Positions 2,009-15,030 of a stretch of 15,030 nt of DNA are shown here, piece after piece (the stretch's first letter is position 1; the number at the start of each line of letters is the position of its first letter). The DNA lies in the IMG/VR virus record IMGVR_UViG_3300014749_000039, positions 1-15,030 of that record; one strand, written 5' to 3'. The position numbers and the translations under genes are program-made. Below the pieces are notes generated by a model. That model did not search any database and had not been told where the DNA came from. It saw only the letters and a program-made list of their open reading frames with translations. Source of the stretch: a virus (Duplodnaviria; Heunggongvirae; Uroviricota; Caudoviricetes).

Positions 2009-2971
2009 CTAAATCAGAAAGTGACTCATATTAGATCTATAAATATCAGAATTTATCTTAATTTTGCTTATTGACTCAGATATTACATTCATCAGTGAAT
2101 CATAGTCTTGACTAGTGCGCAAGGGATTAGCCAATTCATTATCAACAAGTTGTTGAGTTCCTTCGCAATTAAGTCCCAGTGGATTATCAGCCTTATGCGG
2201 TACAACAGCAAAAATAGGTCTTGCCGCTTTAATAGCAAAATCCGCCTGCGTCATTGTCCCACTATTTTTTGCTGCTTCGATTAGTATCGAAACTGCTGAT
2301 AAACCTACCTGGATTCTGTTGCGTTGCACAAATGACTGCTTGAATGCAGGCCTCCCTACAGGATACTCAGAAATCCAAGCCCCACCGTTAGATAAAATTT
2401 CATTTGCTAATCTAGCATTTTGTTTAGGCTTAGCGCTCTCTAAACCATGAGCTAATACAGCAATTGTTTTAGCACCTGCCTTAAGAGTTGCCTTGTGTGC
2501 ATTTGTATCAGTACCAATAGCTAGGCCGCTTACAATCACCACACCTCTTTCACAGATTTTCTTGGTAATTCTCTTCGTAATTTCTTCCCCTGCCATAGAA
2601 ACTTCACGAGAACCAACAATTGCAACTCCTGGCATCTCACTAAGAATATTTACGTCCCCCTTCAAATATAACATTGCTGGGGGATTTGGCGTAATTGCTA
2701 AACAAATAGGGTATTTAGCATCTCCAAAAGGAATTGGAACAATCCCCAATGATAAATGCTTGCTCAAATAGTCTTCAGCATTATGCAATGACGCTATAGA
2801 AAAGGTTGATTTTAAAATCCCGGCTGAATTAACACACTCAACCAATTCATATTCATCGGAAATAATATGGAATGGAATATCGTTAAATAATTTAAGCAAC
2901 CCTTGTTCTGATGCAAGTCTATCAACCTGTACCGATAGACCTAACAATATTTTGAATTGGGAAGGGTGCAT
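2009..2971 (-). CDS. DprA/Smf-like Rossmann-fold (SLOG-type) protein with ~100-aa N-terminal extension; second gene of the PRTase-DprA pair
   Basis: Translation contains the DprA core signature (VAIVGSREVS...VVIVSGLAIGTDTNAHKATLKAGAKTIAVLAHGLE...WISEYPVG...QRNRIQVGLS...IEAAKNSGTMTQADFAIKAARPIFAVVP). Start chosen at ATG 2969-2971, preceded by AGGAG; the listed ORF start at 2986 lacks an SD. Low GC. Confidence 0.75.
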   Translation of the reverse strand: MHPSQFKILLGLSVQVDRLASEQGLLKLFNDIPFHIISDEYELVECVNSAGILKSTFSIASLHNAEDYLSKHLSLGIVPIPFGDAKYPICLAITPNPPAMLYLKGDVNILSEMPGVAIVGSREVSMAGEEITKRITKKICERGVVIVSGLAIGTDTNAHKATLKAGAKTIAVLAHGLESAKPKQNARLANEILSNGGAWISEYPVGRPAFKQSFVQRNRIQVGLSAVSILIEAAKNSGTMTQADFAIKAARPIFAVVPHKADNPLGLNCEGTQQLVDNELANPLRTSQDYDSLMNVISESISKIKINSDIYRSNMSHFLI

Positions 2972-2975
2972 TATT

Positions 2976-3545
2976 TCACTCCTCATAATTAGCTGTTTCT
3001 AGTAACGCCAGTGGCAATATTGTCTTTGCGCCTGCATATCTTAACAGATAATAGCACGCCGTCATACTCCCCCCAGTTGTAGTAACATCATCAATAAGGA
3101 GAATAACCTTATCAGCCACATTGGATGTAACTCCGATTGTTGACATATGATGTTCGACAGAACGATCTCCGCCCCCCTTATGAGCACTCACTACTGTTGT
3201 TTTTCTCTGTAATGATTGGTTATATACAGCATTAGGAAATTTTTTCGCAATATCTTGCGCTATTTTTATTAAAGCTTGAGATACTTTTCCCTCAGCATGA
3301 GAAGGAACAATTGTTATCTCAAAGGGCACGTCGGTAAAAGCAACCCTACCAATCACATAGCTTTGGAGGCTAGAAGTTAAAAGTTGGGTAAAAATATTAA
3401 CAGCCTTTGCATACCCGGAATTTGAAGCGTCCTTCAAATCCATCATTGCCTTTGAAAGTCTATCCCCGGAACGAGGATTTCGCTCTCCTCGATATCGCCA
3501 AGGATGATATGTACCGCAAGAGTAAATTTTGATTGGCCCCATCAT
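2976..3545 (-). CDS. Phosphoribosyltransferase-domain protein (ComF/ComFC-like PRTase); first gene of the pair
   Basis: Classic PRPP-binding loop VILLIDDVTTTGGSM near the C-terminus. Stop TGA at 2976-2978 lies 4 nt upstream of the DprA-like start, so the two genes form a tight operon. Low GC. Confidence 0.75.
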   Translation of the reverse strand: MMGPIKIYSCGTYHPWRYRGERNPRSGDRLSKAMMDLKDASNSGYAKAVNIFTQLLTSSLQSYVIGRVAFTDVPFEITIVPSHAEGKVSQALIKIAQDIAKKFPNAVYNQSLQRKTTVVSAHKGGGDRSVEHHMSTIGVTSNVADKVILLIDDVTTTGGSMTACYYLLRYAGAKTILPLALLETANYEE

Positions 3546-4033: not shown

Positions 4034-4459
4034 ATGAAAAGCTTTTACGTATTAATTTTAATTCTGGTTGCAAGCTTTGTTAGCGTCCCAGTTCAGGCGG
4101 TAACAGCTAAAAACTATGAGAAAGGAACTAAAGCTCAACAGAAATCAATATCTTACCTTTCATGTGCATTCTATGGCAGTAGCACACAATTAGATCCTAG
4201 CTACACGGAGCAAGTACCTACAGCCGATATCAAGATATTACAGAAAGCAGCTTACCACGCTTACAACGATGCGCTCTCATACTTTGGTTATGAGGAACCA
4301 GATCACGAACAACGCATAATTGATTATGCTGAATTTGTGGCGTCGCAAGAAGCTGTGTTATGGGATAAACCAGGAATGAATGGAAAGCAGGTAACACTAA
4401 TTGCTCGTTCTCTCTACAATGAGAGTAACTGTAACTTGTTACTGGACTCAATTAAGTAG
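4034..4459 (+). CDS. Small secreted/periplasmic protein of unknown function (cargo gene next to cos)
   Basis: N-terminus MKSFYVLILILVASFVSVPVQA has a charged n-region, hydrophobic core and a VQA-V signal-peptidase-I-like site; no lipobox. SD GAGGT 5 nt upstream of the ATG. AT-rich relative to the phage core. Confidence 0.6.
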   Translation: MKSFYVLILILVASFVSVPVQAVTAKNYEKGTKAQQKSISYLSCAFYGSSTQLDPSYTEQVPTADIKILQKAAYHAYNDALSYFGYEEPDHEQRIIDYAEFVASQEAVLWDKPGMNGKQVTLIARSLYNESNCNLLLDSIK

Positions 4460-5204: not shown

Positions 5205-7619
5205 TTAATACAGGTTCCGCCACTGATCATCTTCCTGCAAACGCTGGTTCCGATAGAAGATACGCAGGCCTGCTCCTGACGGAATACTGCCTCCGCGAAG
5301 GAGTAAATCGACCTCTTTCTCGCTGCCATCAAATCCTCTGGACTTCAGCTCATACACGAGCTGCAGTCGCTGATGGTCTGTAATTCGCTGTTTGTAGTCT
5401 TTACGCCGTTTCGGTTTCACCAGGCGTAACCTTGCTGCCAGTTCCCGGCGCTCTTTTTTGCTCATACTGTGCAGGTAATCGTGCAACTCCTTGTCATCCA
5501 TGCGGGTAATGTCCGTCCTGGTATCCCCATCAGCTGATTTATCTTTCCCTTGTTGGTTCAAATTTTCAGCAAGGGGACAGTTATTGCCACGAGTCCAAGG
5601 GGCGCAAGCGCCCTGGTCGGCTGCCGCCTCCTGAACGTCAACGGCTTTACGAACCATTTTCCACTTCACTGCATGAGTGCAGATCTTGCCCTCTGCAATG
5701 GGTGACCAGATGCCATAAATACGAATACCGTGATCGCCATAGGCGGTCGGCTCTTCGTTGATTTCATAAGCGGTTCTGATGAGGTGATATTTACGGGGAA
5801 CCAGTACGCCGCCCTGCTTCATGATGTAGGTGGCAAAGCAACCAGCATCAGCTGCAGCCAGAATGGCATCAAGGCGCGGGTTATCCAGTACCGGCGCACC
5901 TGCTTTTTTGTCACCCTGTTGCCTTGCCGCCTGACCAGCCAGCAATCGCAGTTCACGGTAAGCCTGACGCCCCGGAATGCCAAAGAAGCGGAATTGCTGA
6001 ACACGATGCAGAGACGCCCAGGCATTAACGTATTCAGCGTTATCACGCAGAGATTTACCCGTTTCCTTGCTGATCTCGCCAGCCAGACCACGCCCGTCAA
6101 TGTTCTTACTGATATATTTCGCGATGTAGCTTGTCGGCGTTCCTTTGCGCGGGTTAATCAACTCAGACTTAAAGCGCGGCCCAGTGTTATTGCCCAGCTC
6201 CTCGCGGTCTTCACGGATGGCAAACTTACGCAGTAATGCAGTGATGGCGCGGCGGTCTTTTTTGCGCATAAAACACAACAGGTGCCAGTGAACTGTACCG
6301 TCATGATGCGGCTCAGCCACCCGCACGCCATACCAGCGCAATCCGGCTTTGTGCATCGCCTTACGAAATGCAGCAAACATGCCGACCAGATAGTCGCTGC
6401 TTTGTCTTACCGTCGAGTTTGTCCAGGTCGGGTTGGGTCTGCCGTTATTGAGCGTGGAATGGAAACGCGACGGACAGGTGATAGTGTAGAAAACGGCGCA
6501 GTCACCGCGCATTTCCGCGATAAGCTCCAGACCTTTAACACAGGCCATCATCTCATTGCGGCGATGCGCCGGGTTGCTGCTGCTGGCGTTTACCACATCT
6601 TCCATATCCAGCGTGTCGCCGTCTTCGTTCACCAGTTCATGAGAACGGAAAAACTCCAGCGACTTACGGCGCTGCTCACGTTTATGCATCACGGCTTCAT
6701 AGCTGACATAGGGGGATGCTTTTTTGCTGACCAGGCAGACAGCACGCAACTGCTCTTCCCGCCATTCGCAACGCATCTTCCATAATTTCCGATACCACCA
6801 GTCGGCACACAACATACGCGCCAGCGAACCCGGAATGAGTTCATAGGGCACGGGTTTACGGCGGTTTCTTTTCCGACGGAGTTGCTCAAACGCAGGCGGA
6901 ATAACATCCAGACGCAGGGTTTCCGCTGCCACCTTTTCCCATGTTTTGCGGATTTCTTCTGGCTTAACGTCATCGGTGGCATACAAATCACCACAAGCGG
7001 CATCAAGGCACATGCTCATATGCGCAGCGACAAGGGTAGACAGGCGTTTCACCTGATCCTGACTCATTTCAGGCAGGATAAGCAGGCCATCCAGCCCTTC
7101 ATGGCTTGCCATAAAGCGAAAAGAAGTGGATAGCTGACAGTCGCGGACATGCTCCAGTCGTTCCAGACATGGCTTAATCGTCTCACGCAAATAGCGGGAA
7201 TAAGCCTTTGGCCTGCCCAGGCTGCTGAAATATTCAATACGTTGCATCAGCGGCTTGCTGATATGGGAAGGCTGGGCGTTGACGTCAGCCAGAATGACCA
7301 TGTCCGGATTAAAACGCTGCTGCTCATGCGCCAGCTTTGCCCGGCTAATGAGCTTATCCTGCTCCATTTCGCGCTGGACAGGATCACGGGATTCATTAAA
7401 GAAATAACGCTCCCAGACCTGATCACTCAGTGCCTCGCGGCGCAGTTGTTCCTGCTCGTTATCGGCAGCGTACAGAGTGATCAGGTTTGAAAGTGCAGAA
7501 ACCGGCGCAACTTCCGCCGGGTCCAGATAAGGGTTAATGGCCTTTTTTGGGCTGTTCCATGAGAATGCTGCGGCGACCTCGTTAAAGCCGCTGCAGTTGT
7601 TCATATCAGCATGGCTCAT
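5205..7619 (-). CDS. Rolling-circle replication initiation endonuclease, P2/186 gpA-like
   Basis: ~800-aa protein with an HUH-type motif ([10 protein letters not shown]) and a twin-tyrosine motif ([10 protein letters not shown]) typical of superfamily I rolling-circle initiators. Start chosen at ATG 7617-7619, which overlaps the Dam stop as ATGA; the listed ORF begins at an upstream TTG (7646). Confidence 0.8.
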
Positions 7620-8473
7620 GCACGCACTCCGTACACGGCGGAACAATCCACGCCACGCGAAGGATCAAATCCTATCCAGCAGCGCGGCCCGGCAACAGCA
7701 ATGATTTCTGTTGCAGATTTACTCTCACCAGGTGCCACGCCGATGCTGCGTTTTGCCTTGATGTAGTGGTGAGTAAAATTGCGATACAGCGAACGGATCA
7801 GGGATGTGTCACTGTTAGAAATAATGACCGGATATCCTTCTGATGACCGATGTTCAAGAACGGATGCCAGGTGATACTGGTCATCTTCAGTGAAACCATC
7901 AGTGTGATAGCCGGAAAACGTACCGTCATAAGGCGGATCGCAATACACCACATCCCCCGCGTGCAACATCGCCAGCGTTTCATCGAAGCTGGCGCAGATA
8001 AACGTTGCCCGCTGGGCTTTTACTGCAAATGCACGAATTTCTTTTTCAGGAAAATACGGATTTTTATAATTACCGTAGGGAATGTTGAAATGCCCGCTCT
8101 TGTTATAGCGACATAAACCACGGTAACCGTGACGATTGAGATACAGGAAATATATCGCTTTCATGAAATCAGTAATTTCAGTTGAGTAATTAAACTCCTG
8201 CCTTATGTTGTAATAATCCATCTCCCTGTTTGCGTTCTCAAATAAAACTCTGGCGCGAGATATAAACGATTCACAATCAGCGGCAACCTTTTTATAGAGG
8301 TTGATTAAATCAGGATTAATATCCGCAACCAGATAGCTGGGATAATCCGTCTCCATCATCACAGCACAGGAACCCGCGAAAGGTTCAACCAGTCGCGGGC
8401 CAGCAGGAAGATGTTTTTTCAGTTCGGACATTATGGCAGTTTTATTTCCCGCCCATTTCAGGATGGTGCTCAT
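7616..8473 (-). CDS. dam: DNA adenine methyltransferase, Dam-like (D12 class N6-adenine MTase)
   Basis: Translation from ATG 8471-8473 begins [11 protein letters not shown]...[11 protein letters not shown] and contains the DPPY catalytic motif, with overall resemblance to E. coli Dam. SD GGAGGTG upstream; a C-terminal tail overlaps the start of gene A. Confidence 0.8.
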
Positions 8474-8697
8474 ACAGCACCTCCGTTGTAATGTTTGCCT
8501 TTCAGCTCTGCGATTTCCTGACAGGTAATGCAAAGCTGCACACCCGGAATGGCACGGCGGCGTGCTGGCGGAATTGGCGCTTCACACTCAATGCAAAGCA
8601 CGCGGGACACGCCCGGCGTTTTGGCACGGGCAGCACGGATATGGCGTTGGCGTTCTTCTTCAACGCGCTGCTGTACGAGATCCATTGCATCAGCCAT
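8470..8697 (-). CDS. TraR/DksA-family C4 zinc-finger protein
   Basis: 75 aa with CIECEAPIPPARRRAIPGVQLCITCQ (CxxC...CxxC). AGGAGA SD upstream; stop overlaps the Dam start as ATGA. Confidence 0.65.
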   Translation of the reverse strand: MADAMDLVQQRVEEERQRHIRAARAKTPGVSRVLCIECEAPIPPARRRAIPGVQLCITCQEIAELKGKHYNGGAV

Positions 8698-8930
8698 TAG
8701 TGGATCTCCTGCGCTTCGTTCTGGATTGCTTCAGCAGTCACACGAAGCAGTTCTGCCGCTTCCACGTGGTTTAGCTGGCGGGATGAGATATGACACGCCA
8801 GGCTATCAAGGCGAGCTGCCATTGCTTCAGCCCTTGCCCGGCGTTCTTCCAGACGAGCCTCTGTCAGTAAAATATTAAGCCCTGCGTCAGCCGGTCCGGT
8901 TTTGGTCGAGAGGGTTTCAATATTACGCAT
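8697..8930 (-). CDS. Hypothetical early-operon protein (77 aa)
   Basis: ATG at 8928-8930 with AGGAGAA SD; the listed ORF starts two codons earlier at TTG. Stop overlaps the TraR-like start by 1 nt. Confidence 0.5.
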   Translation of the reverse strand: MRNIETLSTKTGPADAGLNILLTEARLEERRARAEAMAARLDSLACHISSRQLNHVEAAELLRVTAEAIQNEAQEIH

Positions 8931-9428: not shown

Positions 9429-9653
9429 CTATCGCTCTTTGTTCTTACGGTAACGCTCAAGAGGAGATATATTTTTTCGTATCATCTCTTTAACCTGCTC
9501 TCCCCGTAAAAACGTCCCATCCTTTAGCGTGAAAAAGTAACTGCCATCGCCCGACAACGACGGATAACAACAGAGCAAATCATCTTCAGATACTGAATAA
9601 CTCTCCCCTCTGTAACGAAACTGATAAACCACTTCACTTTCCGCTGCATACAT
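9429..9653 (-). CDS. Hypothetical early protein (74 aa)
   Basis: ATG at 9651-9653 with GGAGAAAG SD 6 nt upstream; overlaps the upstream ORF by 130 nt in another frame. Confidence 0.45.
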   Translation of the reverse strand: MYAAESEVVYQFRYRGESYSVSEDDLLCCYPSLSGDGSYFFTLKDGTFLRGEQVKEMIRKNISPLERYRKNKER

Positions 9654-9820
9654 TTTGACTTTCTCCGTATCCCCGTGGTCAATTCAGACAGCAATTCATC
9701 TTGTGAACGGCACGGATGCCAGCGTTTACCATCCTCACCCATGATCCAGCCGTGACCGTAGTGCATTGCCGGGCTTTGTTTTACCAGCAGCGATGCAAAT
9801 GATGGTTCTTTCGTCAGCAT
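9524..9820 (-). CDS. Hypothetical protein immediately downstream of cII (99 aa as written; C-terminal third looks like out-of-frame translation)
   Basis: ATG at 9818-9820 with SD GAGGTG overlapping the cII stop. The N-terminal ~50 aa look protein-like; the remainder is Cys/Arg-rich and overlaps the next gene. Confidence 0.4.
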   Translation of the reverse strand: MLTKEPSFASLLVKQSPAMHYGHGWIMGEDGKRWHPCRSQDELLSELTTGIRRKSKCMQRKVKWFISFVTEGRVIQYLKMICSVVIRRCRAMAVTFSR

Positions 9821-9827
9821 AAGCACC

Positions 9828-10337
9828 TCACAGCAAACCGAATGAAGCACCGAGGCCAGTCACGGTATCAACTGCACTCGCCATCGCAGGATTAGCCTGT
9901 AAACGGGCCTGCAATGAAACAGCAGCCAGCGCCATCAGTCGTGTTACAGAGTTAATGCTGCTGATAGCATCACGACGACCTGCACTGGTTTTTACATCGC
10001 CAGATACCGCACCTGCAGCAACACGCCCGATCTCTGCGGTTGCACTCATGACGTAATGTGGCAGTTTCTCTTTTGCCACCTCATTAATCGGTACACATGG
10101 CAGACAATGAATCTGTGCCAGAAAACCATCTATCAGCGTTGAGTCTTCTGTCAGATCGGTAAGCAGCCAGATTTCTGGCGCATTGAGCTGATGCGGTTGA
10201 TCTGGGTTGAGTTTGTTTCGCAGTGTCTGAACATTCATTCCTGCACGTTCTGCCAGCTTCGCCATATTGTGACGTAGTGCAAAAGCTCTACAGGCTTCAT
10301 CAAAATACGGATGTTTGGAAATCTTGTAATCAAACAT
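9828..10337 (-). CDS. cII: Phage 186 CII-like regulatory protein
   Basis: 169 aa, the length of 186 CII; N-terminal HTH-like region; AAGGGGG SD; positioned directly after the apl-like gene as in the 186 early lytic operon. Confidence 0.7.
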   Translation of the reverse strand: MFDYKISKHPYFDEACRAFALRHNMAKLAERAGMNVQTLRNKLNPDQPHQLNAPEIWLLTDLTEDSTLIDGFLAQIHCLPCVPINEVAKEKLPHYVMSATAEIGRVAAGAVSGDVKTSAGRRDAISSINSVTRLMALAAVSLQARLQANPAMASAVDTVTGLGASFGLL

Positions 10338-10369: not shown

Positions 10370-10612
10370 TTACTTACCAACAATGACGCGGAAGTTGGAA
10401 TGTCCGAGGGATTCACGGACCTGATCAGTTTTGTACATCAGATAACGCAGACTTACGCGGCCTTTGTTTTTTTCTTTCTTTACCATGTACTTAGCAAGTT
10501 GACCATGGTGAATTTTTTGGTAAACAGAGCCGCGGGAAATGCCCTCCCACTCTGCGAACTCTGCAGGTGTTGCCATCTCTTTTGGTACACGAATTGAAAT
10601 ATCAGTACTCAT
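10370..10612 (-). CDS. apl: Apl/Cox-like small HTH protein (excisionase / lytic-operon regulator)
   Basis: 80-aa protein with an HTH-like segment (EFAEWEGISRGSVYQKIHHGQL); first gene of the leftward operon, divergent from cI, as for 186 apl. Confidence 0.65.
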   Translation of the reverse strand: MSTDISIRVPKEMATPAEFAEWEGISRGSVYQKIHHGQLAKYMVKKEKNKGRVSLRYLMYKTDQVRESLGHSNFRVIVGK

Positions 10613-10733: not shown

Positions 10734-11366
10734 ATGTTAAACATCAGAATGGGTTCCGATACGGGAGGTAAAGCAGCTATTGAGAGGCTGCTTGCGGCTT
10801 ATGGATTCACAACTAAGCAGGCATTAAGTGAGCACCTGAATGTCTCAAAAAGCACTATGGCAAACAGAGTGTTACGTGACAGCTTTCCTGCTGACTGGAT
10901 AATTCAGTGCGCACTAGAAACCGGTGTTTCGTTGCTTTGGTTAGCTACAGGACAGGGAAGCATGAAAGCAGGATCTGAGACTGAAAAAAGATCTCACAAT
11001 GAGAACAAACAAGCAATTAAACCGTTATCTAAACTCATAACTCCATCTATTCCTAAAGGAACCTTGGAGAATGGACAACTCAGTATTGATGAAGAGATTT
11101 TCCTAGACCACAGCATATTACCTGCAAATTATGAAGAATCGATGTTCTTAGAAACCCCTACTGATTGTTATCTCATCGATAAATCAGTTAAACAAGTCAG
11201 CAATGGATTCTGGCTTATCAATATTGATGGAATGATTATTATTGCAAAAATTATGCGGATTCCCGGCAATAAGATTGTAGTAAATCAAGATGAAGCGTCT
11301 TTCGAGTGCTCTGCTGATGATGTGGAAGTTATTGGGCGTGCAGTCAAAGTAATAAAGAGTATCTAA
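10734..11366 (+). CDS. cI: CI-type immunity repressor (186 CI-like)
   Basis: 210-aa protein with N-terminal HTH region (TKQALSEHLNVSKSTMANRV) and motifs resembling 186 CI (CALETGVSLLWLATGQG; GFWLINIDG...FEC..DDVEVIGR). GGAG SD; divergent from apl and upstream of int. Confidence 0.75.
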   Translation: MLNIRMGSDTGGKAAIERLLAAYGFTTKQALSEHLNVSKSTMANRVLRDSFPADWIIQCALETGVSLLWLATGQGSMKAGSETEKRSHNENKQAIKPLSKLITPSIPKGTLENGQLSIDEEIFLDHSILPANYEESMFLETPTDCYLIDKSVKQVSNGFWLINIDGMIIIAKIMRIPGNKIVVNQDEASFECSADDVEVIGRAVKVIKSI

Positions 11367-11368
11367 AC

Positions 11369-12385
11369 ATGACTGTCAGAAAACAGCCAAACGGCAAATG
11401 GTTGTGTGAGTGCTATCCCAATGGACGCAATGGCAAGCGCGTGCGTAAGCAATTTGCTACGAAAGGAGAAGCCATTGCTTTTGAAAGCTTCACAATGGAA
11501 GAAGTGAATAAAAAACCGTGGCTAGGTGAAAAGGATGATCGGCGACGCCTATCAGAATTAATTGAGCTTTGGTATTCCCTGTATGGCCAGACACTCGCAG
11601 ACCCCAAGCGCCTCATGGCGAAACTTAGAATTATCTGTAATGGTCTAGGCGACCCCATCGCCTCAGAACTGACAGCCGGTGACTTTACAAAATACCGCGA
11701 AGCACGGTTAAAAGGCGACGTTCGTAACGAAGACGGCACACTAATGTCGCCAGTAAAACCACGCACGGTGAATCTTGAGCAACGTAACCTATCATCGGTT
11801 TTCGGCACATTGAAAAAACTAGGCCACTGGTCAGCACCAAATCCTCTCGCCGGGCTGCCAACATTTAAAATCGCTGAGGGGGAACTGGCGTTCCTGACCT
11901 CGGAAGAAATTAAACGTCTGCTAGATGCCTGCGCTGATTCTCAAAACCCCAGTCTGCTTTTGATTGCAAAAATATGCCTGGCCACCGGCGCACGCTGGAG
12001 TGAAGCCGAAAACCTGCAGGGCCATCAGTTATCTAAATACCGCATCACTTATACCAAGACGAAGGGCAAGAAAAACCGCACCGTGCCGATATCTCAAGAT
12101 CTGTATGACGAACTCCCCAAGAACAGAGGGAAGCTATTCACCCCGTGCAGAAAAGCCTTTGAACGGGCAGTAAAGCGAGCTGGCATCGAGCTGCCAGAGG
12201 GCCAATGCACTCACGTGCTACGTCATACATTCGCCAGTCATTTTATGATGAATGGCGGAAACATACTGGTCCTACGCGATATTCTGGGCCATGCCGATAT
12301 AAAAATGACGATGATTTACGCCCACTTTTCGCCGGATCATCTTGAAGATGCAGTTACTAAAAACCCTTTATGCAACTTAAGATAG
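11369..12385 (+). CDS. int: Tyrosine recombinase / phage integrase (P2/186 Int family)
   Basis: 338 aa; C-terminal catalytic region HVLRHTFASHFMMNGGNILVLRDILGHADIKMTMIYAHF with the R...HxxR...Y signature; immediately follows cI. Confidence 0.85.
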   Translation: MTVRKQPNGKWLCECYPNGRNGKRVRKQFATKGEAIAFESFTMEEVNKKPWLGEKDDRRRLSELIELWYSLYGQTLADPKRLMAKLRIICNGLGDPIASELTAGDFTKYREARLKGDVRNEDGTLMSPVKPRTVNLEQRNLSSVFGTLKKLGHWSAPNPLAGLPTFKIAEGELAFLTSEEIKRLLDACADSQNPSLLLIAKICLATGARWSEAENLQGHQLSKYRITYTKTKGKKNRTVPISQDLYDELPKNRGKLFTPCRKAFERAVKRAGIELPEGQCTHVLRHTFASHFMMNGGNILVLRDILGHADIKMTMIYAHFSPDHLEDAVTKNPLCNLR

Positions 12386-12758
12386 AGTAACTTATGAAAA
12401 TAAACTCAAATTATTTACAAATATTCAGCAGGTTATCCATTCTTATTTAACTCTTCAGACTGAGATTAGATTTTATTTATAGAATAAGATAATTTAATAT
12501 CACAAAAAACCTGTAAGCCCTCATCTTTGTTGTATAAAAACATAAAAGATGCCATATTCAAAAAAGTAGAAAAGCATTGCAATGCAACATTAAAAATAAG
12601 CCAATAAAAACCAGTCATTAGAAAATGAAAAAAAACAAAAACATTTTTTATCAAAGCTTCAGTCTGACTACTAGTTTGACTCTGCAATTAACTATCAAGA
12701 TGATCAATATTTATTGATCATCTTGAAGTTGCCCTCAGGAAAGATGAGTATAATATTT

Positions 12759-14492
12759 CTACTCAAGAAGATATTCTAACTCATCTTTTATCGGGATAAC
12801 TTGCTCATAAAGTCGGTGATATGACTTCCCAATTGCGCCTCTGAATTGTATTAACTTTGGTGGCTTGTTACCTATATTAATAATATGGTCTTGAGCTATA
12901 CCTGGGTAGGGATCAATAAATACAATTTCAGATATACCTAACTGATAAGCTTTTTTCGCACACAGCTCACAGGGACTGGCAGTTGTATATAACCTCCCCC
13001 CCTGAACGCCAATGCCACCATATTTTGCAAGTTGTAAAAATGCGTTTTCCTCAGCATGTAATGCACGTGTATGAACTTGATTACCTTTTTTATCTTTATC
13101 AAGATCATTATGTATATCTTTAAAACAATAAGATAAGTTCCTGCCTCTATAAATATCACCAGTTTTATCTATCGCCCTAAAATTTAATAGTTTCTCATTA
13201 GCTTTAATTCTGAAAGAACTATTATTTCTCTCATAATGACTGTACACTTTTTCATCAAAGTCGTTCATTAGGCCATCTAGCGATCTCATAGAGCAAGGAA
13301 TCTGACCGTTGGCGACATCATTCCAACCCACTGATTTTATTGAGTTTTCACCATCAGTTACTACAGCTCCCACCTGTCTAGATATACAACCAGAGTTTAA
13401 TTTTACCGTATACGCAACTTGCATAACCCTTTCCATTGCAGTAGGTGTTATCAGACCAGGATGCTTCATCAGTGCGATGTACCACGCTAATTGTGCTTTT
13501 AAAATATTGTCATTATCAAATTCATTTTTTGGGTTAAAAATGTGTATATCTGATAGTTCAATGCATTTAGTTACATTTGGATTAGTGAGATGTTTGTAAG
13601 AGTTATCACCTTTACCTGACTCTACAGAATCTATTTCCTCTATCTGCTTTTCAGAAAACTTATGTAGTTTCCGCAAATAGTTTGTTCGATGTTCATCTGG
13701 GGCATTTATTGACATTAAATGAAATGCAGAATATCTATCCTTAAAAAATTTTGCTTCATATGGATTTCTAATAGCATCTATGACAATTAATGCGTTATCT
13801 CTTTTGCTTTTTCTTATTAATTTAATAACCCTATTAATAGTTTCCGGCAAATGAAAAACAGATTTAGGTATAAACTCTTTATCTTCAAAATCGACTTCAA
13901 TACGCCCACGGCGTCTAATTGACTTACCTGCTAACTGATAGACTGAAACATATAAATTTGAGTTTATCGCATTTAGTTCAGCTTTGAATTCCTTAGTAAA
14001 TTTTCTAACTAACCTCAAAATTGATATAAATTTATTAATCGTTTTTTCATTAAGCTTCAATTCACTATTATGATCAAGCAAATTCTCAATTACATTTTTA
14101 AATCTTGTTAAAATGAGATTATCTGAAAATACACCAAAAGTTAATACATTATCTAAATGCTCTTTACTGATAGATTTATTAGATGATAGAATAAACTCAG
14201 AAGCTTCTTCAACTGTTAACATCAAAAGATACGCTGAGATTAGGTCACTCACCTTAATTGAGTAAAAATTTTCCCAGTGATTTTCTGCGAATTTTTTAAC
14301 TATATTATAACGATGGACATCCAATCCCTTGTAAAAACCCTGTAATTTACTTACATCAGGGAAGACTGTTTTTTCGTTTTCAAGAATATTAGCTGTTGTT
14401 GTGCAACCAGAACCAGTTCGACCTGTCAAACCGACTAAAATAAACTGCCCATTTTCAAGGAAAAGCTCACTAACGAATTTTTTTTCTTTCAT
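12759..14492 (-). CDS. P-loop kinase-like + deoxycytidylate/cytidine deaminase fusion protein (AvcD / defensive dCTP-deaminase-like)
   Basis: N-terminal nucleotide-binding loop LVGLTGRTGSGCTTT and C-terminal zinc-deaminase motifs HAEENAFLQ...PCELCAKKAYQLGISEIVF (H[AC]E...PCxxC). Very AT-rich gene in an AT-rich islet between int and the ssrA fragment. First codon is GTG (14493-14495) or ATG at 14490-14492. Confidence 0.75.
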   Translation of the reverse strand: MKEKKFVSELFLENGQFILVGLTGRTGSGCTTTANILENEKTVFPDVSKLQGFYKGLDVHRYNIVKKFAENHWENFYSIKVSDLISAYLLMLTVEEASEFILSSNKSISKEHLDNVLTFGVFSDNLILTRFKNVIENLLDHNSELKLNEKTINKFISILRLVRKFTKEFKAELNAINSNLYVSVYQLAGKSIRRRGRIEVDFEDKEFIPKSVFHLPETINRVIKLIRKSKRDNALIVIDAIRNPYEAKFFKDRYSAFHLMSINAPDEHRTNYLRKLHKFSEKQIEEIDSVESGKGDNSYKHLTNPNVTKCIELSDIHIFNPKNEFDNDNILKAQLAWYIALMKHPGLITPTAMERVMQVAYTVKLNSGCISRQVGAVVTDGENSIKSVGWNDVANGQIPCSMRSLDGLMNDFDEKVYSHYERNNSSFRIKANEKLLNFRAIDKTGDIYRGRNLSYCFKDIHNDLDKDKKGNQVHTRALHAEENAFLQLAKYGGIGVQGGRLYTTASPCELCAKKAYQLGISEIVFIDPYPGIAQDHIINIGNKPPKLIQFRGAIGKSYHRLYEQVIPIKDELEYLLE

Positions 14493-14687
14493 CACGTCCC
14501 ACTTATGAATGTAAGAATATTCAACATATTAATTATAATTTATTAACTCATTTTGTTCTAGATACTTGATGTAATGGCGGCACTTTGGCGACGGAGCATT
14601 AAAAACGCGTAAGACGAGCAAATACAACAAAACACTAACACATTGTTTTTAAATATAAATAGCTGTTTTTACTATACTAAAAATGGT

Positions 14688-14732
14688 ATGTAGGAATTTC
14701 GGACGCGGGTTCAACTCCCGCCAGCTCCACCA
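14688..14732 (+). other. ssrA: Partial tmRNA (ssrA) 3' end, ~45 nt ending in CCA: probable attachment-site repeat
   Basis: ATGTAGGAATTTCGGACGCGGGTTCAACTCCCGCCAGCTCCACCA matches my recollection of the E. coli tmRNA 3' terminus (T-arm GCGGG/CCCGC, acceptor strand, CCA). Sequence immediately upstream is AT-rich and not tmRNA-like, so this is a fragment and not a gene. Confidence 0.6.
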
Positions 14733-14860
14733 ATCATGATTGGACGGTGTAAGGACAACACCAACAAAAACAGGAAGTTAGAAGTCTCAGCAAAACACCG
14801 ACCAGACGGTGAGGAGACATAAAAGGATACGCAAAGGAGCCGCGGCTCCTGGTAACATGA

Positions 14861-14884
14861 AAGCCCACAGATGTGGGCTTTTTC
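14861..14884 (+). terminator. Rho-independent terminator-like hairpin
   Basis: AGCCCAC-agat-GTGGGCT followed by TTTTT on the + strand. Confidence 0.4.
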
Positions 14885-15030
14885 GTTGATGGTCAGAACG
14901 ACCAGTTCACACCAGCTACCGCGTTCCACGGGGATTCCACACCGGCACTATGGCTATACCCCACCCCAAGATGCCCGCTTAACGTACTGCTGAATGAGGC
15001 TTTAATACCTGCCTGGTATATTCCACGTCT

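What the first reader, a model, noticed from the sequence alone, without database searches (positions are those of the whole stretch)
14688..14732. 45-nt ssrA (tmRNA) 3'-end copy marks an integration site; the element organisation around it is unresolved
Seen: the last ~45 nt of tmRNA, ending in CCA, appear without the rest of the gene, which is the signature of the displaced or duplicated att core of an element integrated into ssrA. The integrase is 2.3 kb away with the deaminase islet in between, and no second att copy is visible between int and the islet. Inference: either the deaminase is cargo carried inside the prophage between int and att, or it is a remnant of an older ssrA island into which the phage inserted. 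The intact ssrA should lie at the far end of the prophage, beyond the window.
Basis: partly seen in the sequence, partly recalled or inferred. Interest (0 to 1): 0.45.

Follow-up and report, generated by a model that had tools for sequence, protein, structure and literature searches.

The report
Prophage end-scar in the tmRNA gene
The 45-base tmRNA-gene fragment is the ordinary right-end scar (attR) of a Fels-2/186-like prophage integrated into E. coli ssrA, and the nearby anti-phage dCTP deaminase is cargo carried inside that phage in a known variable slot between its integrase gene and its attachment site.

Summary
Window 14688-14732 (+) is an exact 45-nt copy of the ssrA 3' end, with no tmRNA gene in the window.

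- **Far end:** in a genome 99.7% identical over the whole window (KK19-02), the intact ssrA lies 34,745 bp upstream, across an apparently complete 186/Fels-2-like prophage.
- **Right flank:** the sequence after 14732 is the native ssrA-ypjA flank. The empty junction is present in 1389 of 5426 complete E. coli genomes.
The deaminase is phage cargo, not an older island. The 121 nt left of the core (14567-14687) are the phage attP arm, homologous to those of Fels-2, RE2010 and Cartapus. It carries two TGGCGRC repeats at fixed positions.
- **The cargo slot:** the deaminase cassette (12386-14566) lies between the int stop codon and that arm. No second core or arm copy exists.
- **Linkage:** the cassette occurs in 20 genomes, always joined to this int and core, with two different downstream contexts.
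- **Relatives:** of 55 related viral contigs, 15 have the slot empty and 40 carry other cargo.

All of this is known biology: Fels-2/SopEΦ integrate at ssrA, and a 2026 paper describes the int-att hotspot of P2-like phages. Interest is low.

The parts
14688..14732 (+). attR core: exact 45-nt copy of the ssrA (tmRNA) 3' end ending in CCA. It is the direct repeat of the same 45 nt inside the intact ssrA at attL, outside the window.
   Evidence: The direct repeat is 45 nt plus 1, with the copies 34,745 bp apart in KK19-02 (L005).
14567..14687 (+). P arm of the phage attachment site. It is homologous to the attP arms of Cartapus, RE2010 and Fels-2. It is A/T-rich, with two candidate Int arm-type sites.
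   Evidence: 81-83% identity over 14567/14574 to the core in three Peduoviridae records..
14575..14592 (+). Two direct TGGCGRC heptamers 11 bp apart (14575-14581 and 14586-14592). They are inferred arm-type binding sites of the integrase.
   Evidence: the same pair occurs in the P' arm at +49/+60, plus an inverted copy at +90, and at identical positions in Cartapus; the pair sits at exactly -113/-102 from the core in 55 of 56 loci. Binding itself is inferred, not shown.
12386..14566 (.). Cargo slot between the int stop codon and the P arm, here a 2181-bp low-GC cassette. It is empty in Fels-2 and holds other genes in relatives.
   Evidence: homology with the three phage records breaks at 12366-12380 and resumes at 14567-14574. 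(GC 0.28-0.37 against about 0.5 in phage core genes)..
12759..14492 (-). Anti-phage dCTP deaminase, 577 aa. It has an N-terminal P-loop-like motif GRTGSGCTT and a C-terminal zinc deaminase with HAEENA and PCELC motifs. It is convergent with int.
   Evidence: PADLOC dCTPase, E 2.9e-145. NCBIfam NF041025 equivalog, 423.7 bits against a cut-off of 400. Pfam PF00383. Translation. RefSeq annotation WP_000660070.1.
11369..12385 (+). Tyrosine integrase of the 186/Fels-2 type, 338 aa, transcribed towards the attachment site.
   Evidence: Pfam PF24624 plus PF00589. 91% DNA identity to the Cartapus/RE2010 cI-int block and 78% to that of Fels-2.
10734..11366 (+). CI-type immunity repressor, 210 aa, upstream of int.
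   Evidence: Pfam PF07022 plus PF16452. Annotation of homologous records.
10370..10612 (-). Apl/Cox-like excisionase-regulator gene, divergent from cI. It is the probable directionality factor for excision.
   Evidence: Position homologous to Cartapus gp36 'Cox-like excisionase and repressor' and Fels-2 Apl. The role is inferred.
14733..15030 (.). Native chromosomal flank of ssrA. It holds an intergenic region with a hairpin plus T-run at 14863-14883, and the 3' end of ypjA on the minus strand (stop codon at 14893-14895).
   Evidence: a synthetic ssrA-plus-flank junction is present, many copies at 100% identity, in 1389 of 5426 genomes. Annotation. The hairpin was read directly.

Best explanation
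The 45-nt fragment is the attR core left by integrase-mediated site-specific recombination. The partners were the attP of a 186/Fels-2-like temperate myophage (family Peduoviridae) and the 3' end of the E. coli tmRNA gene ssrA.

The phage attP carries its own 45-nt copy of the ssrA 3' end. Integration therefore rebuilds an intact ssrA at attL, with a terminator supplied by the phage P' arm 9 nt after the CCA. It also leaves a promoterless 45-nt duplicate at attR, next to the native ssrA-ypjA flank.

In this phage group the int gene is transcribed towards attP and ends right at the P arm. That tight junction is a cargo slot. In this window it holds a horizontally acquired anti-phage dCTP deaminase, which is expected to protect the lysogen by depleting dCTP during infection by other phages.

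Shown here: the repeat, the intact ssrA, the empty site, the arm homology, the variable slot, and the linkage of the cassette to int and core. Inferred: Int binding at the TGGCGRC repeats, the exact crossover point, present-day excision competence, and deaminase activity.
For: - **Exact repeat.** The 45-nt ssrA 3' end occurs once in the window. No tmRNA gene is in the window.
- **Far end.** KK19-02 is 99.7% identical over all 15,030 nt. It shows ssrA, a complete P2/186-type gene set, cI, int, the deaminase, the 45-nt copy, then ypjA. The repeats are 34,745 bp apart and the ssrA is intact.
- **Empty site.** The ssrA-ypjA junction is present in 1389 of 5426 complete E. coli genomes.
- **Arm homology.** Homology to Cartapus, RE2010 and Fels-2 runs through cI-int to 12366-12380, breaks, and resumes at 14567-14574 through the core. 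In Fels-2 the two blocks are only about 31 bp apart.
- **attL side.** The right flank of attL in KK19-02 is 96% identical to the sequence following the core in Cartapus. So attP equals the attR-left arm plus core plus the attL-right arm.
- **Arm repeats.** TGGCGRC pairs occur in both arms. They sit at fixed -113/-102 positions in 55 of 56 loci, with or without cargo.
- **Linkage.** The cassette occurs in 20 of 5426 genomes, once each, always contiguous with this int and core. In 9 of them the conservation ends at the core. The one inspected, TUM1887, has a P4-type integrase remnant and IS3 there.
- **Survey.** In IMG/VR loci with Int at least 90% identical, the slot is empty in 15 and filled in 40, with at least six unrelated cargo types. 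One is a 69%-identical deaminase in the same orientation with a different downstream flank.
- **Deaminase identity.**
- **Terminator.** A phage-supplied terminator follows the ssrA CCA.
- **Literature.** SopEΦ and Fels-2 integrate in ssrA (PMC3448106, citing Pelludat 2003). A minor defence hotspot between integrase and att in P2-like prophages is described in PMC13586616. The tmRNA locus is a multi-element hotspot in E. coli (PMC10121019).
Against: - The full ssrA and attL are not in the window. They are inferred from near-identical genomes.
- No virion-derived or circular assembly containing this deaminase was found. The protein search of 50,697 phage records gave only distant homologues of 30% identity or less. 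None of the 80 IMG/VR loci showed a cargo-bearing attP junction.
- Cartapus and RE2010 records derive from prophages. Cartapus virion production is reported only at low level (PMC9928086).
- A Fil-family gene is annotated as truncated in this prophage, so full lytic competence is unproven.
- No sigma-70-like promoter for the deaminase was detected in 14493-14566.
Confidence: 0.9

Rival explanations
1. The deaminase is a remnant of an older ssrA-integrated island. The phage later inserted upstream of it, so the fragment at 14688-14732 is the old island's attR, not the phage's.
For: - Tandem arrays at ssrA are common. The median is 2 and the maximum 5 ssrA-3'-end copies per E. coli genome.
- The cassette has much lower GC than the phage and is on the opposite strand to int.
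Against: - This model needs the order int, P arm, core, island, core. Only one core and one arm exist.
- The arm next to the core is the phage's own arm, at a fixed distance from the core as in cargo-free relatives.
- In TUM1887 the older island remnant sits after the core while the deaminase stays on the phage side.
- The cassette is never found without this int.
Confidence: 0.04
2. The cassette is an integrase-less hitchhiker (a mini-satellite or integrative mobilisable element) that uses the phage Int in trans and has its own attachment site.
For: - Elements without their own integrase that exploit helper recombinases are known (general knowledge).
- The slot shows frequent replacement by unrelated genes.
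Against: - No repeats of the core or arm flank the cassette. The best internal matches to arm plus core are 13 nt or shorter, with E of 0.27 or higher.
- The cassette boundaries coincide with the int stop codon and the first arm-type heptamer in every variant. That fits gene replacement by recombination between phages rather than site-specific insertion.
Confidence: 0.02
3. The structure is as described, but the prophage is now a fixed, non-excising fossil. The fragment would then be only a historical scar, and the deaminase would behave as a chromosomal gene.
For: - A Fil-family gene is annotated as a pseudogene.
- Some carriers, such as strain 5735, have heavily deleted versions of the prophage that still keep int, the deaminase and attR.
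- Related Cartapus produces few virions (PMC9928086).
Against: - In KK19-02 all structural, lysis, replication and regulatory genes, as well as int and the apl-like gene, are annotated intact. Both att cores are identical.
- The same phage-cassette unit at 96-99.7% identity sits in strains from varied hosts and sources and in two flank contexts, which implies recent mobility.
Confidence: 0.2

Closest known systems
Fels-2 / SopEΦ / RE-2010 (ELPhiS) / Cartapus: 186-type Peduoviridae integrating into ssrA
   Same: - Same cI-int module (78-91% DNA identity) and homologous P arm.
- Identical 45-nt core in Cartapus and RE2010, and in the part of the core held in the Fels-2 record.
- Same target gene and same orientation, with int transcribed towards attP.
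- ssrA integration of SopEΦ and Fels-2 is cited in PMC3448106.
   Different: - Fels-2 has nothing between int and the P arm.
- Cartapus and RE2010 carry a gene of about 400 aa annotated as RES-like, on the int strand.
- This phage carries a 577-aa dCTP deaminase on the opposite strand. Its int ends a few codons earlier than in cargo-free relatives.
Minor defence hotspot between integrase and att site of P2-like prophages (NAR 2026, PMC13586616)
   Same: A recognised defence gene sits between int and the att site of a P2-like prophage in E. coli. [quoted passage not shown]
   Different: - The paper reports only 3% of P2 defence systems at this location.
- In the ssrA-targeting Int group sampled here the slot is occupied in 40 of 55 loci, mostly by genes that PADLOC does not recognise.
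- The paper's own element list was not checked for this locus.
CP4-57 and other P4-type-integrase islands at E. coli ssrA
   Same: They use the same target gene and duplicate the ssrA 3' end. They can lie in tandem with this phage, as the remnant in TUM1887 does. The tmRNA locus is described as a multi-element hotspot in PMC10121019.
   Different: Those elements have int immediately downstream of the rebuilt ssrA, on the attL side. Here int is at the distal, attR end, pointing at the partial copy. The layout of CP4-57 itself is from general knowledge and was not tested here.
Anti-phage dCTP deaminase (nucleotide-depletion defence; listed as reference 16 in PMC10121019; NCBIfam NF041025)
   Same: It scores above the equivalog cut-off. 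It has the zinc deaminase motifs HxE and PCxxC and an N-terminal P-loop-like region.
   Different: No activity data exist for this allele. Its location in the int-attP slot of a Fels-2-like phage is simply one genomic context of a known gene.

Membership tests
attR of an element integrated into a tRNA/tmRNA gene | Partial copy of the 3' end of the target gene, identical to the gene and ending at or near CCA | tested here: met
   45 of 45 nt identical, ending in CCA. The match is unique in the window, with 0 of 200 shuffles reaching it.
attR of an element integrated into a tRNA/tmRNA gene | Intact target gene in direct orientation at the other end of the element | tested here: met
   Met in KK19-02, which is 99.7% identical over the window: a 363-nt ssrA lies 34,745 bp upstream. 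It cannot be seen in the window itself.
attR of an element integrated into a tRNA/tmRNA gene | Unoccupied site in related strains, with the gene joined directly to the outer flank | tested here: met
   The synthetic ssrA-plus-flank junction is found in 1389 of 5426 complete E. coli genomes, many at 100% identity.
attR of an element integrated into a tRNA/tmRNA gene | Site-specific recombinase encoded within the element | tested here: met
   A 338-aa tyrosine integrase at 11369-12385.
attR of an element integrated into a tRNA/tmRNA gene | Excision regenerates attP and attB | not testable with these tools
   This needs junction PCR or reads from an induced culture. No circular contig was found among 80 IMG/VR loci.
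186/Fels-2-like Peduoviridae prophage | Characteristic gene order: terminase and portal, then replication gene A, dam, cII, apl, cI, int; with ogr-D at the other end | tested here: met
   Annotations of L005 and L001. Window ORFs. Homology to Cartapus, RE2010 and Fels-2.
186/Fels-2-like Peduoviridae prophage | attP arms homologous to those of characterised members, with repeated arm-type motifs | tested here: met
   The P arm is 81-83% identical to the three phage records. TGGCGRC pairs occur in both arms. Protein binding was not tested.
P2-like int-att defence hotspot (PMC13586616) | Variable gene content between conserved int and conserved att in related phages | tested here: met
   The distance from int stop to core is 126 nt in 15 loci and 764-2787 nt in 40, with at least six unrelated cargo types.
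P2-like int-att defence hotspot (PMC13586616) | Cargo is a defence system | tested here: met
   PADLOC dCTPase and NCBIfam antiphage_deaminase for the window's gene. The other cargo types gave no PADLOC hit.
P2-like int-att defence hotspot (PMC13586616) | Cargo is packaged and transferred with the phage | tested here: inconclusive
   Supported indirectly by the cargo's position inside the arm, its 20-of-20 linkage to int, and its two flank contexts. No virion sequence contains it.
Anti-phage dCTP deaminase | Sequence membership above the curated cut-off | tested here: met
   NF041025 equivalog, 423.7 bits against a cut-off of 400. PADLOC E 2.9e-145.
Anti-phage dCTP deaminase | Zinc-dependent cytidine deaminase catalytic motifs | tested here: met
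   HAEENA and PCELC in the translation. PF00383 at 54.3 bits.
Anti-phage dCTP deaminase | dCTP depletion on phage infection and protection of the host | not testable with these tools
   This needs nucleotide measurements and plaque assays.

The most novel reading that the evidence does not exclude
In the ssrA-targeting Fels-2-like phage group, the few bases between the int stop codon and the first arm-type site of attP form a high-occupancy, single-gene exchange slot, filled in about 70% of sampled relatives. Most occupants give no PADLOC hit and no Pfam match above gathering score apart from a dCTP-deaminase/dUTPase-like domain. They include a RES-like protein of about 400 aa, a membrane protein of about 350 aa, a protein of about 500 aa, and a protein with a dCTP-deaminase/dUTPase-like domain and a predicted transmembrane segment. 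On this reading they are undescribed anti-phage genes. The slot would then be a richer source of defence genes than the 3% figure in the 2026 survey suggests.
Probability: 0.4. Interest if true: 0.35.

Novelty: already known. Interest (0 to 1): 0.15.

Why it matters
The result settles the annotation. The prophage boundary is at 14732, and the deaminase belongs to the mobile phage rather than to the chromosome or to a separate island. This defence gene can therefore spread by lysogenic conversion.

It also gives a clean anatomical example of a cargo slot squeezed between an integrase gene and its attachment-site arm. The pieces themselves are already described: ssrA integration by Fels-2-like phages, tandem occupancy of ssrA, P2-like defence hotspots, and the dCTP deaminase. 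The one modest lead is the set of uncharacterised genes occupying the same slot in relatives.

Tried and rejected
- **Phage records with the deaminase.** The tblastn search of 50,697 phage records found only distant deaminases of 30% identity or less, such as T4-like dCMP deaminases and a Burkholderia phiE094 gene. There is no packaged-genome proof.
- **Circular attP contigs with cargo.** I looked for core followed by ogr/D downstream of int among the 80 IMG/VR loci. Only deleted prophages with both att copies (L026, L029, L034) and a tandem element (L045) turned up.
- **IHF site in the P arm.** There is one one-mismatch match at 14636-14648, but window-wide counts are not above chance: 26 observed against 21.5 expected. 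No claim is made.
- **Promoter and terminator scan of 12300-15030.** No promoter-like site lies in the 14493-14566 spacer upstream of the deaminase, and overall counts are at or below shuffle expectation.
- **Primary papers.** Pelludat 2003 (PMC181011) and Williams 2003 (PMC142792) are not held in the library. ssrA integration by SopEΦ and Fels-2 is cited second-hand from PMC3448106.
- **Cartapus as an independent virion genome.** Rejected after reading PMC9928086. It is LF82 prophage 4, re-annotated, with low virome coverage.
- **PADLOC and Pfam on five other slot cargos.** There were no PADLOC hits, and only a DCD/dUTPase domain for the L018 protein.

Full report
**1. The observation**

Window 14688-14732 (+) reads ATGTAGGAATTTCGGACGCGGGTTCAACTCCCGCCAGCTCCACCA. 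This is an exact, unique match to the last 45 nt of E. coli ssrA. There is 1 hit at up to 3 mismatches and 0 of 200 shuffles reach it. The T-arm 16-mer also occurs only once.

No tRNA or tmRNA gene is present in the window (ARAGORN). Rfam at gathering thresholds finds nothing in the whole-window scan. A permissive Rfam scan of 14560-14800 gives a 5'-truncated tmRNA alignment in which only about the last 45 model positions are confidently aligned. The fragment is therefore real, is a 3' piece only, and is far beyond chance.

**2. Source and the far end**

The window is E. coli DNA. It is 99.7% identical over all 15,030 nt to strain KK19-02. In that genome (L005) the order, in window orientation, is:

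- smpB, then ssrA (363 nt)
- a BRCT-domain/exonuclease-like gene, ogr, D, tail genes, capsid genes, terminase, portal
- a DprA-like plus phosphoribosyltransferase pair
- DinI, replication gene A, dam, cII, an apl-like gene, cI, int
- the dCTP deaminase, the 45-nt copy, then ypjA

ARAGORN calls the ssrA there intact, with tag peptide ANDENYALAA. The two copies of the 45-mer are direct repeats 34,745 bp apart. Identity extends one further base (A) on the 3' side and zero bases on the 5' side. This is the attL/attR pair of an apparently complete P2/186-type prophage.

**3. The right flank is native chromosome**

I built a synthetic junction from the last 195 nt of ssrA joined to window 14733-15030. 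It is present as one contiguous place in 1389 of 5426 complete E. coli genomes, many at 100% identity, annotated ssrA | ypjA. So 14733 onward is the ordinary ssrA downstream region, and the element lies entirely to the left of 14732. The ypjA stop codon is at 14893-14895 on the minus strand (mapped). A hairpin GCCCAC-AGAT-GTGGGC followed by T5 lies at 14863-14883 (read).

**4. Is the deaminase inside the phage?**

Five lines of evidence say yes.

(a) *Arm homology.* Homology to Cartapus, RE2010 and Fels-2 runs through cI and int, stops within 5-20 nt of the int stop codon (12366-12380), and resumes at 14567-14574 through the core.

- In Fels-2 the two blocks are about 31 bp apart, so nothing lies between int and the arm.
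- In Cartapus and RE2010 a gene of about 1.2 kb, annotated RES-like, fills the gap.
- The 121 nt immediately left of the core are therefore the phage's own P arm, and the deaminase cassette (12386-14566) lies between int and that arm.

(b) *attL side.* The sequence to the right of the core at attL in KK19-02 is 96% identical over 2.5 kb to the sequence following the core in Cartapus. So attP equals the attR-left arm plus core plus the attL-right arm, as the Campbell model requires.

(c) *Arm repeats.* Both arms carry a pair of direct TGGCGRC heptamers 11 bp apart. The P arm pair is at window 14575-14581 and 14586-14592. The P' arm pair is at +49/+60, with an inverted copy at +90. Positions are identical in Cartapus. 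Across 56 loci (the window plus 55 IMG/VR contigs with Int at least 90% identical), the P-arm pair sits at exactly -113/-102 from the core in 55, whether cargo is present (41) or not (15). I interpret these as arm-type Int sites, by analogy with P2-family attP organisation as summarised in PMC3448106. Binding is not shown.

(d) *No second site.* There is no second core or arm remnant anywhere between int and the arm. The best matches are 13 nt or shorter, with E of 0.27 or higher.

(e) *Linkage.* The cassette (12386-14566) occurs in exactly 20 of 5426 complete genomes, once each. Those are the same 20 in which int, cassette and core are contiguous. In 11 the downstream flank is ypjA. In 9 the conservation stops at window 14732-14734. 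In the one inspected, TUM1887, a P4-type integrase remnant plus IS3 follows the core. That is an older island lying after the core, while the deaminase stays on the phage side.

In addition, IMG/VR locus L017 has a 69%-identical deaminase in the same slot and orientation, next to a 95%-identical Int, with yet another downstream flank.

Together these reject the 'older island remnant' alternative and support 'cargo inside the prophage'.

**5. The slot**

In cargo-free relatives the int reading frame runs a few codons further (…NLNWKR*), and the first heptamer starts 3-4 nt after the stop codon. In cargo-bearing phages the int C-terminus diverges over its last few codons, and the cargo ends within about 10 nt of the first heptamer.

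Among the 55 IMG/VR loci where the core was found downstream of int, the distance from int stop to core is 126 nt in 15 and 764-2787 nt in 40. The cargo types are:

| Cargo | Size | Loci |
|---|---|---|
| RES-like protein | 395-414 aa (one truncated to 312 aa) | 16 |
| Membrane protein (one locus, L073, has a larger multi-ORF insert) | 343-364 aa | 11 |
| Unnamed protein | 490-509 aa | 8 |
| Membrane protein | about 220 aa | 2 |
| Deaminase homologue (L017) | 585 aa | 1 |
| DCD/dUTPase-like protein plus a second ORF (L018) | 261 aa and 255 aa | 1 |
| IS5-type transposase (L011) | 267 aa | 1 |

None of the five non-deaminase representatives hits PADLOC. E. coli genomes also show 'hypothetical protein' and 'HNH endonuclease' genes at this position. 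The window's cassette has GC 0.28-0.37 against about 0.5 for phage core genes.

**6. The cargo gene**

The CDS at 12759-14492 (-) encodes 577 aa.

- It matches PADLOC dCTPase (E 2.9e-145).
- It matches NCBIfam NF041025 'anti-phage dCTP deaminase' as an equivalog above cut-off, 423.7 against 400 bits.
- It matches Pfam dCMP_cyt_deam_1.
- It shows the zinc-binding motifs HAEENA and PCELC, and an N-terminal GRTGSGCTT P-loop-like motif.

Its mechanism is dCTP depletion on infection. That follows from the published family (reference 16 of PMC10121019) and was not tested here.

**7. How it works**

The phage Int is a tyrosine recombinase (Pfam PF00589 plus Int_N). It recombines attP with the 3' end of ssrA.

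Because attP carries the 45-nt ssrA 3' end, ssrA is rebuilt at attL. The P' arm supplies a hairpin with a 12-bp stem plus a T-run, 9 nt after the CCA, which can act as a replacement terminator. The displaced 45 nt remain at attR next to the native flank and have no function of their own except as the excision substrate.

Excision should need Int plus the Apl/Cox-like protein encoded at 10370-10612 (inferred from the homologous Cartapus and Fels-2 annotations). The crossover point inside the 45 nt cannot be located because both cores are identical.

**8. Comparison with what is known**

- SopEΦ and Fels-2 are known to integrate into ssrA (PMC3448106, citing Pelludat et al. 2003).
- The E. coli tmRNA locus is a known hotspot used by several element types (PMC10121019, citing Williams 2002 and 2003).
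- Defence hotspots of P2-like phages are well described (PMC9122126).
[quoted passage not shown] It suggests that the region is mobilised with the phage (PMC13586616).
- RefSeq already annotates the gene as anti-phage dCTP deaminase.

The finding is therefore an instance of known biology. What this analysis adds is base-level anatomy: the cargo sits between the int stop codon and the first arm-type repeat. It also adds the observation that, in this Int lineage, the slot is occupied in most sampled members by genes that PADLOC does not recognise.

**9. Limits**

- attL is inferred from near-identical genomes, not from the window.
- No virion or circular sequence contains this deaminase.
- Cartapus and RE2010 records derive from prophages. 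Cartapus virions are produced only at low level (PMC9928086).
- A Fil-family gene is annotated as truncated.
- No promoter for the deaminase was identified.

**10. Verdict**

Novelty is 'already known'. Interest is 0.15.

Noticed in passing
window 2009-3545 (-): A DprA-like protein (325 aa, PF02481) and a phosphoribosyltransferase (189 aa) form a pair matching PADLOC ShosA/ShosT (E 9e-70 and 3e-18). They lie between the portal gene and the DinI/replication genes, in the classical A-Q defence hotspot of P2-like phages. This prophage therefore carries two defence cargos in two hotspots.
   Followed up: partly
window 4034-4459 (+): A 141-aa ORF in the same AT-rich A-Q hotspot region, annotated hypothetical in KK19-02. 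It has no Pfam or PADLOC match, and its function is unknown.
   Followed up: partly
L005 37259-37741 and L001 20972-23238 (just inside attL, outside the window): The other side of the attachment site, between the P' arm and ogr, is also variable. KK19-02 and Cartapus have a BRCT-domain/'exonuclease' gene there, reported as expressed 15-fold above background in LF82 lysogens (PMC9928086). Strain 5735 has a reverse-transcriptase-domain gene plus a small ORF and an IS421 there.
   Followed up: no
L018 about 7017-8760 (IMG/VR contig 3300028453_000039): In the same int-attP slot, one relative carries a 261-aa protein with a dCTP-deaminase-like/dUTPase domain (PF22769, PF00692) and a predicted C-terminal transmembrane segment. 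A second ORF of 255 aa accompanies it. Neither has a PADLOC hit. This may be another nucleotide-targeting defence candidate.
   Followed up: partly
window 12366-12385 compared with L043/L045/L004: Cargo-bearing phages have an integrase whose last few codons differ from, and end earlier than, those of cargo-free relatives (…NLNWKR*). Cassette exchange therefore appears to have overwritten the 3' end of int.
   Followed up: partly
L001 (strain 5735) 20501-43500: One carrier has a heavily deleted version of the same prophage, with tape-measure, baseplate V and portal genes truncated and an IS421 inserted. It still keeps cI, int, the deaminase and both att cores. This is an example of prophage decay with retention of the defence gene.
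   Followed up: no
window about 9650-9830 (-), homologous to L005 8037-8192: The Fil-family (filamentation) gene is annotated as a truncated pseudogene in this phage lineage, in several genomes.
   Followed up: no
whole window against KK19-02: The window is 62 nt longer than the matching KK19-02 stretch (15,030 against 14,968 nt, aligned in two pieces). So there is one indel somewhere left of the int region. It was not located.
   Followed up: no
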